The position numbers and the translations under genes were made by a program. Under the pieces are notes generated by a model, which was not told the DNA's origin, ran no database searches, and saw only the letters and a program-made list of their open reading frames with translations. A stretch of DNA of 64,000 bases from Tubulanus polymorphus (Eukaryota; Animalia; Nemertea): NCBI RefSeq assembly GCF_964204645.1, contig NC_134029.1, positions 3,410,001 through 3,474,000 on the forward strand. Reading direction: 5' to 3'. Below, piece by piece: positions 579-11,175 of this stretch (its first letter is position 1; every line of letters starts with the position of its first letter).

Positions 579-3500
579 ATGGTGAGTTTGTAGCGTTCTT
601 ATTAATCGAATACTTCACCCAGCCCTGGCGTATCCACCTGAGCCAGTTGCTCAAAAGTTGGTTAGAGTTAACCAGTGGATAGTTGATATGGTGACAATTG
701 AAATTACATTGTTACCGTACTGTACTATGGTATTTAACGGCCGGTTATCTTTAAACAACTTTTGAGCAACTGTGGCCCCAGTGATCTCCGTCGCCCTACG
801 ATCCTTGAAGTGTGGTACATCAGACACTAAGGTTCTTGGTGAATCGAACACTAATTCTTCATATTTGAATCTCAGGGGCTTACGTAATCAGAGTTGTAGG
901 AATTAAACAAAAAAGTCTGACCGGTGTTTGTAAAGACAATGGATTATTAACAGATTCAAGGCGCAAGGGCCGATCCAGGGGAGTACCATACCAGGGGGAC
1001 TCGTGTCTATTTTCCTTGACTGACATCGTTTTTTTGGGTATATTCTTAAAACTTTTGAGCTCATTTAACTCAAATTAGTCTTAGCCTAAAGACCAGTGAA
1101 ACTGTGCAGTCCAGATAAATCGTCGTTTTTATATCCATTTTACACTGTTTTGAAGGATTGCAAAAAATCTTTCCTTTCTCTTGAATTGGAGAAAAGCGGA
1201 AATTTTACACTGTTTTGAAGGATTGCAAAAAATCTTTCCTTTCTCTTGAATTGGAGAAAAGCGGAACAAATTTTCCATGCCTGATTGAAAGGGGGTCGTA
1301 TTGGAAGTTTGGGGGTGAACTGTTGCTAAGATCATCCAATATCCAAGGTACTATACATAGGCCTATAAAAAGAAAAGGGTGGAAACTCGTATACACTTCG
1401 ATTTGAATTCACTACTCCTAAAATATCCAAAGGATTTCCGTGAAATCTGTTTTAAAATGTTCAAAACATCCTATATTTTCTAATTATACGAGCCCCTGTG
1501 GCCTGATTAGGGCCTTTTCAAATCATCACAAAATCATGGAACAAATTTTTTGAACTTTGGATTTTTTGAGGTGCCCTCATGAAATTTTTTAGGATAGAAA
1601 TCATTGCTTTTCATTTTGTAAAGAAATTATTCCCTCATGATAGCTATTGATCAAATAGCCTTGGAGAACACCAAAATTTCAAAATTTTCTGGGGGGGGGC
1701 GCTCACCACGCTGGGGTGCCCTGTGATAACTTGTGCCTTTCACGCTTATGTGCCCTTCAGTACCTGGTCCATATTAGGCCTATGAATGATACTACAACAA
1801 ATTGGAATGATAATATTAATTTGAAAATAAATTTGAAGGAACATCGAAAAAGTAATTAAAAATTGACTGATTATTTGGCAATTTTGTCTAATGACACTTC
1901 ATTCAGAGGGGGTTAAAGAAAATGAAAATATTTTTGCTTCATAGATTTGTTTTGTCGTTGCAGTCAAAGAAAAACGTAAAATCCATCGATGAAATCCGCG
2001 GTCAAATGGAACGCAAGGCCAATGTGCGAAACGTGTCGGTTATTGCGCACATCCACCACGGAAAATCAACCCTGACCAATTCGCTCATCAGTAAAGCTGG
2101 TATTGAGCTTATTTCTTCATCGGAGGCCGGAGATGCTCGTTTCACTCTTCAACACAAGGATGAACAAGAAAGATCTTTTACCATCAAATCAGTGTGAATA
2201 TTACACCATTTCTGTAATACTGGCTATTCCCCTTTTCTATAACTCGATGCAAGTGTTAGGCCACTTAGAACTAAGGACTAAGGGCATGAATACAATTCTT
2301 TCCGTGGGTTTTCAACGGTGGTTCCAGGGATCCATGAAAGTGCCCTTCGGGATGTGAGTAGTCTCAAAAATTGGCCCCTGCATCTCACCAACATGACTGA
2401 ATGTTGAGCTGAGAATTTGGGAAATTGAAAGTTTTATAAAACAAATCTTTGTAAAATTCAGCAGTATGACATTTCGGTTTAATTCAAAATCAATTTTTCT
2501 TTGAAATCAATTTTCAGATAAAGTTCTTGGGACTCATTGTCAATATAAGAATTTATTTACACTCCAACCATTCCATGGTATATGGAGAATAAATCAGTGT
2601 TTAGTTGTCTATTTAGTGTAGTGCTGATGGCACCTCGTTGGGTAGAGGCGCGGAACTGTATAATTTTCAAGTGCTTCTTGTCATTTTCTAGTCCTAATAC
2701 CATGTTCTACGAAGTAGACGACATCGTCTTATCCGAGGTTGCTAAACTGCAGAAAACGGACGGAAATCAATTCTTGATCAATCTGATCGATTCGCCCGGT
2801 CACGTTGATTTCTCATCAGAAGTAACGGCTGCCCTGCGTGTAACTGACGGTGCCCTCGTTGTTGTAGACTGTGTGTCTGGTGAGTAAATTTCATCTGATT
2901 TGTTGGTTAATAATTACATAACAAGAATTTCATCAGACACGCACAGTGACTCCGGCGATTTAACAGGTAAGATGGCTGTGTTCTCCACCAAGACTCAGTT
3001 CCATAGATCTGAGTTAAGATTTGACTTTACAATGAACTTACTTTACCTGATAGCTTACTCTAACTCATGACTGTGGAACTGGATCCTGAGGTCTTAAAAA
3101 GGGGTGGACACACCTGTCACTTTACGACCAACCTCTGTTCAATAATCTGCTACTCTGTTGATATAGTACAAAATCAATGCCTGCAAGTGAAATGCAGCAA
3201 ACTTACTGTAATCACGTTTTGTAGAACCCTCAAACCACTTACAGAGGCTTTCATGAGCAGTTCAACATTGATCCAATGAATGAGTATGAGTGTTGTCCAC
3301 CCAAAATCCCTGCTTATGGTGAACACTCGAAATACATTTTTGGTTTACCTTAGTTAGCGATTGTGGAGTTGGTATTTAGCCAATTATGTAAAATTGCGGT
3401 TTTTAACCCACTTGGGACTTAAGTCCCAGCGTTCACTTTTCGTCCATCAGTTGTTGGTCCGTTGCAAATTCTGGTTATTGTGGAAAGATTTGAAGATGCT

Positions 3501-9500: not shown

Positions 9501-11175
9501 TCATACATTGACTTGTTCCTGGATTATATCTGAATTGGTGCAATTGGGCAATTACCGAGAAGACGTAGACCATGAAAGTGACAGTACATAATAAAAGTTG
9601 TCTGGCCCACCAAAAGCGAAATTGTCTTCAAAATTTCCTTGACTCGGACCCTTTGTCCTTGAATGTGACTGTTTAGGCGAAGTTACTGTAATATAGATCA
9701 AACATCTGAAGATGAAAGATCTGAAAAGGGATTTATAATACACTTGTTTGTTTTCAGGGCGTGTTGTGCGAAGAGAATATGCGCGGCGTACGTTTCGATA
9801 TAAAAGACGTCACTCTTCACGCCGATGCTATTCACAGAGGTGGTGGTCAGATTATTCAGACGGCGAGACGAGTATGTTACGCGTGTCAACTGACCGGTGT
9901 TCCGAGACTGATGGAACCGATCTACCTGGTAGAGATCCAGTGTCCACTGGCAGCGGCTGGTGGTATTTACCCAGTTATCGACGCCCGACGAGGTACCAGT
10001 ATTGCTCACAGTAACCTCGATGCTCCGGGTTCAACGAAGATCACCAAGTGGTACTTGCCCGTAAATGAATCTTTCGGTAAGTTCACTTATAATCTTCGGG
10101 TCCCACTTTTATAGACTGGTAATGACGAGTTCACCTCCGGATTGAAGTTCACAGCAACATCAAAACTCAACATATAGCTCCGCGGTGACGGAAGGTCGGC
10201 GGAGCTGATGGGTTTGGGGATGAGCCGTCGTCGTCCATCCGTCTGTTCGTCAACTTTTACTTTAAATCGCTACTAGTCCTAAAGTTCTTATTGGATCATT
10301 TCCAAAATGAGTATGGGGTAAGACCTACAACAATATTGAGCCATTTTTTGGTTTGACCCCCAGGGGTGCCCTACGGGCTGGGGCCCATATTTCTATGAAT
10401 CGCTACTAGTCCTACAGTCAGATCGATATAAAACTTGGTACCAATGATCTGTGGCTAGATCTCTTCTCAATTTTCGCTTGATGTTCTATCTGGGTGAAAG
10501 ACTAAAATGATATAGACCCCTTGTTTTGGGATTTCGATGGCTTGGGCTGCTCTATTGGGAAAACCTATATTTCTATGATTTGTTACTAATCCTTCTTGGT
10601 GTACCTTTAGAAATGGGGCAATTAGATAAATGAAGAATGAATGATGAAGTAAACATAACATAGCAGAGCTATGTTAGCCGACAGGCCGCTTGTTGGATTA
10701 ATGCTATTGGACTTGGTTACTTGATGTTTTCAATGGGAACATCTTAAGCTTAAATCCATATTCAAGACCCGTCTAAGACCATAATGCTCTATAGCCAAAT
10801 TAAGCACTAATGACCAGTCTTTAAAGAAAAGCAGTCCCTTGTCTTCAAAATTTGCCCTTGGGTGGGGATATGCCCTTGGGTGAGACTCTTCAGCCCAGAT
10901 TTTTGCCTTAAATGCTTTCTGTTATAAATCATCATTTCTTGGCACTATGGTTTACGAAGCAATTTTTGTCTATGTTTTCAGGTTTGACAGCGCAATTGAG
11001 GGCACGAACGGGTGGCAAGGCTTTCTCACAATGTGTGTTAGATCACTGGGATGTGTTACCAGGTGACCCCTTCGAGTTCAGCAGTCACGCAGCCAATATA
11101 GTCAAAATAACTCGATCACGTAAAGGACTCAGCGAAGGAATACCCCCTCTCGATAAATTTGAGGATAAATTATAA
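579..11175 (+). CDS. EEF2: Elongation factor 2-like protein (divergent eEF2 paralog), 11 exons, 852 aa
   Basis: Exons from GT-AG sites: 579-581 (ATG|gtgagt, the typical eEF2 ATG-only first exon), 1964-2193, 2692-2879, 4078-4286, 4587-4832, 5752-6200, 6641-6899, 8458-8709, 9034-9243, 9758-10076, 10982-11175; total 2559 nt in one open frame. eEF2 motifs present: [77 protein letters not shown]-terminal DKL. Many substitutions at normally invariant sites suggest a paralog rather than the housekeeping copy. Confidence 0.93.
617..845 (+). repeat. Dispersed repeat, second copy at ~7931-8037
   Basis: Shared blocks cccag(c/t)cctggc, cagtgatct, gatcc, tgtggtac..cagacactaaggttcttggtgaat in introns 1 and 7 of the eEF2-like gene. 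Confidence 0.65.
640..779. mobile_element. MITE-like element with terminal inverted repeats
   Basis: gccagttgctcaaaagttg ... caacttttgagcaactgtggc; interrupts the dispersed repeat in eEF2-like intron 1. Confidence 0.7.
1137..1266 (+). repeat. Perfect 65-bp tandem duplication
   Basis: attttacactgttttgaaggattgc...gaaaagcggaa at 1137-1201 and 1202-1266. Confidence 0.9.
2991..3090. mobile_element. Short MITE (ggatccagttccacag TIR family)
   Basis: cagttccatag ... ctgtggaactggatcctgag; same family as 35175-35286 and 58340-58447. Confidence 0.6.
4838..5032. repeat. (AT)n microsatellite
   Basis: About 165 nt of pure AT dinucleotide plus a short upstream run, just after the exon 5 donor. Confidence 0.97.
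6911..8116. mobile_element. Nested non-autonomous TIR elements in eEF2-like intron 7
   Basis: Outer imperfect inverted repeat atgggcggccatatcccactaaaattcagcgttt (from 6911) / aaacactgatttttggcgggaattggccgcccat (to 8116); inner ~60-bp inverted repeat 6981-7039 / 7871-7931 (ccaaaatgtc..aatgtcggctaattgaca). Confidence 0.7.
8153..8373 (+). ncRNA. SNORA73: U17/E1 (SNORA73, snR30 family) H/ACA snoRNA, intronic copy 1
   Basis: Colinear with vertebrate U17 as recalled: actctc..ggctctgtc..gcgtaagggag, cccgttccac, H box ACATTA (8258-8263), m1-like atattcc (from 8303), agctttctcatagtc..gcaattattgagaagac, m2-like agaccat (8354-8360), ACA (8368-8370) 3 nt before the end; ~220 nt; same strand as host. Confidence 0.85.
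8926..8980. repeat. Short palindromic MITE-like element
   Basis: ggtcggttctatagttgt..agttga / tcaact..acggctatggaactgacc. Confidence 0.5.
9405..9586 (+). ncRNA. SNORA73: U17/SNORA73-like copy 2, degenerate (m1 arm deleted)
   Basis: Alignable to copy 1 (ttctcatttggctctgtcttt, ttccacagcatc, gagaagacgtagaccatg, ACA at 9581-9583); basal stem atgatgttg/cagcatcat; lacks ~40 nt containing atattcc; H box reads ACATTG. Confidence 0.7.
10174..10695 (+). mobile_element. Helentron-associated (HINE/DINE-1-like) non-autonomous element
   Basis: 5' tagctccgc..gcggagct hairpin, then (gtcc/gtc)n microsatellite, internal repeats aatcgctactagtccta, and 3' subterminal gcagagcta followed by a short GC hairpin. 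Confidence 0.55.

What the first reader, a model, noticed from the sequence alone, without database searches (positions are those of the whole stretch)
579..11175. Intact but diverged eEF2 paralog: degenerate GTPase centre, preserved diphthamide loop (possible decoy or regulatory eEF2)
Seen: a full 852-aa frame with canonical splice sites and no stops. G1 reads [14 protein letters not shown] (canonical AHVDHGKSTLTDSL; codon 2054-2056 is CAC), switch I reads [18 protein letters not shown] (canonical RFTDTRKDEQERCITIKS), GAGELHLE is GASELHLE, and the G' and domain V regions are heavily rewritten. DSPGH, NKMD and the domain IV loop [15 protein letters not shown] with the diphthamide His (9833-9835) are unchanged. 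Known: eEF2 is very highly conserved in animals; the P-loop Asp and switch I Asp contribute to ribosome-stimulated GTP hydrolysis and cation binding in translational GTPases; diphthamide is the target of diphtheria toxin, exotoxin A and cholix. Inference: this may be a catalytically impaired eEF2 kept for another role, such as a decoy for ADP-ribosylating toxins, a ribosome hibernation factor, or a tissue-specific paralog.
Basis: partly seen in the sequence, partly recalled or inferred. Interest (0 to 1): 0.8.

Follow-up and report, generated by a model that had tools for sequence, protein, structure and literature searches.

The report
Ribbon-worm eEF2 copy losing its motor
A ribbon worm has a second, spliced copy of the essential ribosome motor eEF2 with altered GTP-splitting residues; it likely still folds but likely no longer drives normal protein synthesis, and its intact toxin-target loop was likely copied back from the normal gene, so a toxin-decoy role is unlikely.

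Summary
Observation confirmed: 11 GT-AG exons, 852 aa, identical to RefSeq XP_074650493.1 of Tubulanus polymorphus. A sister gene with intact motifs exists (XP_074649838.1, 83% identical). In run X2 this copy is spliced, with no differences, at contig depth 13-24 against 294-771 for the sister. It carries 96 amino-acid changes against the sister's 18 and alters 25 of 274 invariant columns against 0, including the P-loop Asp. It is not a simple pseudogene: a stop-free frame arose in 22-111 of 20,000 neutral simulations, and the G4, G5 and domain II cores hold 13 synonymous but 1 replacement difference. However, DSPGH and the diphthamide loop lie where synonymous divergence is also near zero, which points to gene conversion, and domain IV carries P589S and P716Q. 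The decoy reading therefore loses its main support. Best reading: a folded, hydrolysis-poor eEF2 that works like bacterial EF-G II; function untested. No ortholog was found and the scan had not noted it before.

The parts
477..581 (+). Exon 1: 5' UTR and start codon (579-581)
   Evidence: X2 contig covers 477-580 and joins 1963 with 0 differences
1964..2193 (+). Exon 2 (aa 2-78): G1 and switch I, high divergence from sister; +2 aa insertion at 49-50
2054..2056 (+). D32H: P-loop Asp (EF-Tu Asp21 equivalent) replaced by His; V31I beside it
   Evidence: role from passages of PMC5084732
2147..2179 (+). Switch I changes D63L, T64Q, R65H, C72S, I73F; R71 and the G2 Thr74 are kept
2692..2879 (+). Exon 3 (aa 78-141) with DSPGH (2789-2803); likely gene-conversion tract at 2735-2878 (1 difference in 144 nt)
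4078..4286 (+). Exon 4: conserved island aa 142-168 ending in NKMD (4080-4160; 4 synonymous, 0 replacement differences), then rewritten helix aa 169-199 (18 of 31 changed)
4587..4832 (+). Exon 5: G5 island aa 211-236 (4 synonymous, 1 replacement, G223A) and start of the G'' insert
5752..6200 (+). Exon 6: end of G domain and domain II; likely conversion tract (aa 327-396 identical to sister; pS about 0.045)
6641..6899 (+). Exon 7: domain II core island aa 456-484 (5 synonymous, 0 replacement) and rewritten domain III start (K512Q, R519Q, P525L)
8154..8373 (+). Intronic SNORA73 (U17) H/ACA snoRNA match, full length
   Evidence: 71.5 bits, E 7e-16, just under the 74-bit gathering score
8458..8709 (+). 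Exon 8: G544S (8503-8505), D554V, H559L, V570F and P589S (8638-8640; vertebrate P596, in the SPNKHN loop)
   Evidence: roles
9034..9243 (+). Exon 9 (domain IV); likely conversion tract (1 difference in 133 nt, 0 synonymous)
   Evidence: linked to this copy's exon 8 and intron 8 in DNA run X3, record 15
9294..9360 (+). Intronic SNORD18-like C/D snoRNA, weak match with a gap in the guide region
   Evidence: 29.7 bits, E 0.034, under the 41-bit gathering score
9405..9590 (+). Second SNORA73-like copy with an internal deletion of about 40 nt that removes the m1 box
9758..10076 (+). Exon 10: diphthamide loop (His 9833-9835) inside a likely conversion tract (9756-9979: 6 differences, at most 1 synonymous); P716Q at 9857-9859; rewritten domain V with +2 and -1 aa indels
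10982..11175 (+). Exon 11 and stop codon
   Evidence: X2 contig joins 10075 to 10981 and runs to 11220 with 0 differences

Best explanation
This is a spliced, full-length duplicate of the housekeeping eEF2 of Tubulanus polymorphus that likely still folds and binds guanine nucleotide but is predicted to have lost most ribosome-triggered GTP hydrolysis, so it likely serves as a minor accessory factor that would park or slowly move ribosomes, much as bacterial EF-G II does. SHOWN: DNA-level duplication (same intron positions, homologous first exon), splicing, about five times more replacements than the sister, loss of the P-loop Asp and rewriting of switch I, domain III and domain V, with P-loop GKS, G2 Thr, G3, G4 and G5 kept. 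INFERRED from statistics: selection keeps the frame, the hydrophobic core and the G4, G5 and domain II cores; exons 3, 6, 9 and 10 were overwritten from the sister by gene conversion, which is why DSPGH and the diphthamide loop look pristine. INFERRED by analogy: weak GTPase (EF-Tu Asp21Ala). UNTESTED: translation into protein, ribosome binding, and restriction to gonad or starvation.
For: Rate asymmetry 96 vs 18 changes with 29 ambiguous (first alignment 98 vs 19, relative-rate chi2 16-57 with 5 of 5 outgroups); tree branches 0.28 vs 0.03, pair supported 100/100. 25 of 274 invariant columns changed vs 0. Spliced contigs with 0 differences over about 1,000 exonic nt in X2, including the degenerate exon 2. 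Frame survival 111, 36 and 22 of 20,000 neutral runs for 98, 115 and 133 missense changes; 4 of 4 indels on this branch are in frame. In high-divergence exons, replacements are clustered (35 and 4 of 20,000 shuffles); three islands chosen after the fact hold 13 synonymous and 1 replacement difference. Conserved hydrophobic columns turned non-hydrophobic in 2 of 67 vs 6-10 expected (P 0.05 to 0.0007 by calibration). Branch omega about 0.5-0.6 if half the synonymous changes are on this branch, sister about 0.1. EF-Tu Asp21Ala cuts ribosome-stimulated GTPase by three orders of magnitude. EF-G II has the same profile: relaxed G2 and domains I-III, kept G1/G3/G4/G5 cores and domain IV, with Gly at the P-loop Asp site. 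eEF2-GDP is a main occupant of idle and egg ribosomes.
Against: No direct evidence of protein, ribosome binding or tissue pattern. Several ribosome-facing residues are changed (V31I and P589S at SRL and H69 contacts; G544S; 12 basic residues lost vs 9 gained), which could mean it no longer binds ribosomes at all. In high-divergence exons conserved columns change as often as variable ones (31 of 194 vs 30-45 of 203; P 0.78-0.13), and the BLOSUM profile of the changes is not distinguishable from neutral (267 of 2,000 simulations as conservative). No ortholog among the 120 best of 7,994 hits, so the copy is young or species-limited. Two of three intronic snoRNA matches look decayed. The review itself says Asp21's role outside EF-Tu needs more data. 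The omega values rest on difference counts from one run's sister contigs and on an unknown split of synonymous changes.
Confidence: 0.45

Rival explanations
1. A decaying duplicate with no job of its own: translocase constraints are gone, the frame survives through weak selection against broken products or through recent loss of function, and transcription may persist because the gene hosts a SNORA73 snoRNA.
For: Conserved columns hit as often as variable ones; neutral-like radicality; low contig depth; no ortholog; deleted m1 box in one SNORA73 copy and gapped SNORD18; first-stage readers preferentially flag intact frames.
Against: Stop-free frame in only 0.1-0.6% of neutral runs; 4 of 4 indels in frame; islands with normal synonymous but almost no replacement divergence; clustering of changes; spared hydrophobic core. 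snoRNA release needs splicing, not an open frame (recalled).
Confidence: 0.22
2. A fast-evolving tissue-specific (for example germline) eEF2 that still translocates normally, with compensated substitutions.
For: All five domains score above Pfam cut-offs; catalytic His, GKS, G2 Thr, R71, NKMD and diphthamide His are kept; most yeast P580 substitutions are tolerated; low whole-sample depth fits restricted expression.
Against: 25 invariant positions changed; P-loop Asp lost; yeast P580T, close to P589S, is inviable.
Confidence: 0.14
3. A folded pseudo-GTPase used off the ribosome, for example as a scaffold or as a sink for eEF2 regulators or modifying enzymes.
For: Core and nucleotide pocket kept while ribosome-facing residues change. 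The Ser-Pro site that primes Thr56 phosphorylation has lost its Pro and residues after the Thr56 equivalent are changed.
Against: No partner is known; loss of the kinase context argues against a kinase sink; Snu114 is the only eEF2 relative with a known non-ribosomal role in the passages read.
Confidence: 0.1
4. A decoy that absorbs diphthamide-directed ADP-ribosylating bacterial toxins.
For: Diphthamide His and loop are intact; the protein is likely dispensable for translation.
Against: The loop lies in a tract with at most 1 synonymous difference in 54 sites, and exon 9 has 0 in 28, so its conservation needs no selection; P716Q and P589S alter the domain IV tip; contig depth is 13-24 vs 294-771 for the true target (a poor measure of expression), and a minor substrate would barely titrate a catalytic enzyme (inference).
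Confidence: 0.05
5. An assembly or sequencing artefact, or a mosaic of the two copies.
For: Low-divergence tracts could in principle come from collapsed paralogs.
Against: DNA runs X1 and X3 hold this copy's introns and exons with 0-5 differences per 330-1,000 nt in most listed pieces, and X3 record 15 links exon 8, intron 8 and exon 9 with 1 difference; X2 holds the spliced degenerate exons with 0 differences.
Confidence: 0.01

Closest known systems
Canonical eukaryotic eEF2 (sister gene XP_074649838.1; PDB 4V6W, 1N0U)
   Same: Five-domain layout, intron positions, 83% identity to the sister, GKS, DSPGH, NKMD and diphthamide loop.
   Different: P-loop Asp, switch I, domain III loop, SPNKHN Pro and domain V are changed at otherwise invariant columns; far lower contig depth.
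Bacterial EF-G II / EF-G2 (Thermus, Bacteroides)
   Same: Translocase paralog with relaxed G2 and domains I-III, kept G1/G3/G4/G5 cores and domain IV (PMC3150367 passages); P-loop Asp replaced; described as weak translocases, one lacking GTPase activity (passage and a reference title).
   Different: Ancient, widespread bacterial subfamily with its own conserved positions; this is a young eukaryotic copy known from one species, and its domain IV conservation is likely due to conversion. A functional analogy only.
Archaeal aEF-2p paralogs (Asgard, Korarchaeota)
   Same: Second EF-2 copy diverged from translocase function beside a bona fide copy.
   Different: Mirror image: aEF-2p keeps G1-G5 and loses both domain IV loops including the His (PMC6143161 section 21); this copy keeps the His and loses GTPase elements.
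eEF2 on hibernating ribosomes (SERBP1/Habp4/Stm1 complexes; zebrafish eEF2b)
   Same: Gives a job for an eEF2 that sits on ribosomes with GDP and does not cycle.
   Different: In those cases the ordinary eEF2 does the job; zebrafish eef2b is highly expressed in adult tissues. No dedicated catalytically altered paralog appears in the passages read.
EFL1/Ria1 and Snu114
   Same: eEF2-derived paralogs with other functions.
   Different: Pre-date the last eukaryotic ancestor; this protein scores 1,017-1,204 bits to the 21 best eEF2 chains vs at most 536 to Snu114 and 367 to EFL1.

Membership tests
eEF2 (sequence family) | GTP_EFTU, D2, EFG_III, EFG_IV and EFG_C domains; closer to eEF2 than to EFL1 or Snu114 | tested here: met
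eEF2 (sequence family) | Diphthamide loop HxDxxHRG | tested here: met
   motif definition
Canonical eEF2 translocase | P-loop Asp of translational GTPases | tested here: not met
   D32H; 279 of 280 fetched G1 patterns keep it
Canonical eEF2 translocase | Conserved switch I / G2 region | tested here: not met
   D63L, T64Q, R65H, C72S, I73F; Arg71 and Thr74 kept
Canonical eEF2 translocase | G3 with catalytic His, G4 NKxD, G5 | tested here: met
   DSPGH, NKMD kept; G5 has one change, G223A
Canonical eEF2 translocase | Second domain IV loop SPxKHN | tested here: not met
   P589S; Lys and His kept
Canonical eEF2 translocase | Ribosome-stimulated GTPase and translocation | not testable with these tools
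   needs biochemistry
Bacterial EF-G II | Descent from bacterial EF-G, G' insert and subfamily-specific positions | tested here: not met
   Nests inside animal eEF2 as sister to P0006
Bacterial EF-G II | Divergence profile: G2 and domains I-III relaxed, G cores and domain IV kept | tested here: inconclusive
   Profile matches but domain IV conservation coincides with conversion tracts
Archaeal aEF-2p | Loss of diphthamide His and loop motifs with G1-G5 kept | tested here: not met
Unprocessed pseudogene | Stops or frameshifts, neutral evolution throughout | tested here: not met
   parts of the gene do look neutral
Toxin decoy | Target surface conserved by selection; abundant or induced; modified by the toxin | tested here: inconclusive
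   Conservation explained by conversion; low contig depth; modification not testable

The most novel reading that the evidence does not exclude
An animal counterpart of GTPase-deficient bacterial EF-G2: a dedicated hydrolysis-poor eEF2 that binds ribosomes without cycling, and so stores them or translocates slowly without spending GTP in gametes or starving worms, with its ribosome-probing domain IV and switch II repeatedly refreshed from the housekeeping gene by conversion that selection favoured.
Probability: 0.2. Interest if true: 0.85.

Novelty: new variant of a known kind. Interest (0 to 1): 0.5.

Why it matters
eEF2 is among the most conserved animal proteins, and its known diverged relatives are ancient (EFL1, Snu114) or microbial (EF-G II, aEF-2p). 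A young, transcribed animal copy with 25 invariant positions changed, beside an 83%-identical intact sister, is a ready-made pair for asking what the P-loop Asp and switch I do in eEF2 and whether eukaryotes can use a hydrolysis-poor translocase. It is also a caution for sequence reading: islands of perfect conservation in a diverged paralog can come from gene conversion and not from selection. If it is only decaying, it is a local curiosity.

Tried and rejected
No genome assembly was on hand, so the sister's position and DNA, copy number and any third eEF2 could not be read directly; a full codon-model dN/dS was not possible. No run was on record as RNA; X2 is treated as RNA only because its contigs are spliced and cover exons. 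X7 held neither copy at high identity, no inference drawn. Exon boundary slips were corrected. AlphaFold2 on a 13-sequence alignment failed (pLDDT 39.6, pTM 0.28) and was not used; no fold search or complex prediction was run. Loss of net basic charge as a sign of lost ribosome binding: not seen (net -4 vs -1 to -4). BLOSUM test for purifying selection: not significant. Search for an ortholog of the degenerate copy with residues 1-320: none among the 120 best of 7,994; short or fragmentary records were outside the searched lengths. No second eEF2 in the window. Literature searches listed nothing on this gene or on nemertean eEF2 paralogs (0 papers; none of 20 listed holds 'eEF2 paralog'); the library lacks most subscription papers. 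Han et al. 2023 (EF-G2, PMC9841332) is not held. Earlier scan notes were unrelated.
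Full report
1. Observation. The gene model has 11 exons from 579 to 11175, ten GT-AG introns and 852 codons with no internal stop. 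The product is letter for letter P0004, RefSeq XP_074650493.1, 'translation elongation factor 2-like' of the ribbon worm Tubulanus polymorphus. Among 317 fetched proteins, 279 of the 280 with a G1 pattern read VD and only this one IH; 262 of 263 read DTR in switch I and only this one LQH. These are best-scoring hits, so other degenerate copies elsewhere are under-sampled.

2. The sister. P0006 (XP_074649838.1, 855 aa, 83% identical) has every motif intact. Both records list the same longest contig, 24,873,478 bases, so they likely share a scaffold (inference); the sister is not in the window. In a tree of 26 of the fetched proteins (picked by hand: the 9 closest relatives and 17 others) the two are sisters at 100/100 with branches 0.28 and 0.03, inside a long-branched clade otherwise made of unnamed transcript-length records. 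The sister is likely the housekeeping gene: in run X2 a single contig accounts for all depth over the 3' part of exon 3 at 80% likeness and over exon 9 at 85%. A more distant third copy is not excluded.

3. Reality and expression. DNA-like runs X1 and X3 hold this copy's introns and exons; the seven X1 pieces of this copy listed show 0-5 differences in 332-989 nt. X2, whose contigs are spliced, holds this copy with 0 differences across exon 1-2-3 joins (depth 13.6), exon 5 (13.4) and the exon 10-11 join (23.8); the sister's contigs have depth 294-771. The tool warns that contig depth is a poor measure of expression, so I take only 'spliced, and probably much rarer than the sister', from one sample.

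4. Rate and targets of change. With three outgroups, 96 replacements fall on this branch, 18 on the sister's and 29 are ambiguous (98, 19 and 35 including gaps in the first alignment). Against 165 other full-length proteins (167 of 226 then fetched passed the length filter), it departs at 25 of 274 invariant columns, the sister at 0; at 95% columns it has 59 departures, the median protein 2. Changes include V31I and D32H (P-loop), D63L, T64Q, R65H, C72S, I73F (switch I), K512Q, R519Q, P525L, G544S (domain III), P589S and P716Q (domain IV), F790L, P804S, F808L (domain V). In EF-Tu, Asp21Ala lowers ribosome-stimulated GTPase by three orders of magnitude and Val20/Ile61 form the hydrophobic gate (PMC5084732, passages); the equivalence to D32, V31 and I73 is by motif position. 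The match of D63 to the Mg-linked switch I Asp is recalled. P589 is vertebrate P596 (counted by hand), an H69 contact mutated in SCA26; yeast tolerates most P580 changes but not P580T, and V28 is an SRL contact sensitive to size (PMC9830224, parts 1-2 of 5). Ser595 phosphorylation by CDK1/2 primes Thr56 phosphorylation (PMC11660736, passages); that the lost Pro would disable this site is my inference.

5. Why the 'preserved' motifs are preserved. I compared difference counts for nine sister pieces in X2 with the known protein differences; the 3' part of exon 10 and exon 11 had no sister piece listed and are left out. Upper bounds on synonymous divergence are 0.027, 0.05, 0 and 0.018 in exons 3, 6, 9 and 10, and 0.20-0.34 in exons 2, 4, 5, 7 and 8 (heterogeneity P 3e-8). 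With unambiguous synonymous sites only (0.35, 0.39 and 0.17 in exons 4, 5, 7; 0 of 7 in a short part of exon 8) heterogeneity remains, 24 of 200,000 simulations. The sister's DNA contigs stop aligning at the exon edges at 85%. Silent and replacement sites falling to zero together is what exon-limited gene conversion gives, not purifying selection. DSPGH (exon 3) and the diphthamide loop (exon 10) both lie in such tracts. Selection may have favoured these conversions; this cannot be told here.

6. Not a plain pseudogene either. Neutral mutation gave a stop-free frame in 111, 36 and 22 of 20,000 runs for 98, 115 and 133 missense changes, and all four indels on the branch are in frame. Within the high-divergence exons replacements cluster (35 and 4 of 20,000 shuffles), and three islands picked after the fact (142-168 up to NKMD, 211-236 with G5, 456-484 in domain II) carry 13 synonymous differences in 58 sites but 1 replacement in 188. 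Conserved hydrophobic columns became non-hydrophobic in 2 of 67, against 6.0 expected when calibrated on other conserved columns (P 0.05) and 8-10 when calibrated on dS (P 0.013-0.0007). Branch omega is about 0.5-0.6 if half of the synonymous changes are here and 0.25-0.32 if all are; the sister's is about 0.1. Against this: conserved columns changed at 31 of 194 and variable ones at 30-45 of 203, not significantly different, and the changes are about as radical as neutral ones. The picture is a mosaic: converted tracts, spared structural and guanine-binding cores, and freely rewritten switch and interface patches.

7. Mechanism. The pattern fits a protein selected to fold and hold nucleotide but freed from coupling hydrolysis to the ribosome. 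The closest working model is bacterial EF-G II, with relaxed G2 and domains I-III and kept G cores and domain IV (PMC3150367, passages), Gly at the P-loop Asp site (PMC4342817, passages), and weak translocase activity (PMC12172202, passages). The Bacteroides paper was seen only as a title in a reference list; its link to starvation is recalled. A second outlet is ribosome storage: eEF2-GDP sits on most idle mammalian ribosomes (PMC13541302, passages) and on dormant egg ribosomes (bioRxiv 10.1101/2021.11.03.467131, passages). I put 0.45 on an accessory ribosome factor of this sort, 0.22 on slow decay, 0.14 on a normal tissue isoform, 0.10 on an off-ribosome role, 0.05 on a toxin decoy and 0.01 on artefact. 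Archaeal aEF-2p paralogs show the reverse pattern (PMC6143161, abstract and section 21).

8. Novelty. The gene is annotated in RefSeq but I found no description of it: searches (12 of 13 papers listed; 8 of 9; 20 of 3,470; 0) showed none by title and abstract start; subscription papers and supplements were not seen. Diverged translocase paralogs are a known kind, so this is a new variant. It is a member of the eEF2 sequence family, fails three sequence tests for a canonical translocase, and is not a member of EF-G II or aEF-2p.

Noticed in passing
window 8154-8373, 9294-9360, 9405-9590: The gene hosts intronic snoRNA matches: a full SNORA73/U17 in intron 7, and a SNORD18-like and a second SNORA73-like copy in intron 9. 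The second SNORA73 lacks about 40 nt including the m1 box; a contig in runs X1 and X3 has 5 extra nt at 9314 that fill the gap in the SNORD18 guide, perhaps the sister's intact version.
   Followed up: partly
P0006, P0007, P0009, P0010, P0012, P0067, P0121-P0124: The intact sister itself belongs to a long-branched eEF2 clade (about 70% identity to other animal eEF2; 12-24 departures at 95%-conserved columns against a median of 2), so this lineage's main eEF2 was already evolving fast before the duplication. Cause unknown.
   Followed up: partly
window 5752-9243 in runs X1 and X3: Sister-type contigs have higher depth than this copy's in both DNA-like runs (about 46-50 vs 30-36 in X1; 24-32 vs 10-13 in X3). 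Depth is no copy number, but extra sister-like copies or presence-absence variation of this copy would be worth checking.
   Followed up: no
window 16534-18024 (-): An intronless MatE (MATE) transporter frame of 496 aa lies between exons of a WD40 gene on the same strand, which looks like UTP15 by recall; possibly a nested retrocopy.
   Followed up: partly
window 20969-53852 (+) and 60193-63647 (-): Neighbouring ARID/BRIGHT-domain gene spread over about 33 kb, and the 3' part of a ubinuclein gene with a long Gln/Ser-rich exon; useful as synteny markers.
   Followed up: partly
window 56115-57434 (+): A 439-aa acidic and Lys-rich open frame with about eight tandem 6-residue repeats at 56429-56761; no Pfam match.
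   Followed up: no
window 4867-5032; 1140-1270; 780-850 and 7960-8040: A long TA microsatellite in intron 5, a tandem duplication of about 66 nt in intron 1, and a dispersed repeat present in introns 1 and 7 and in many X2 contigs.
   Followed up: no
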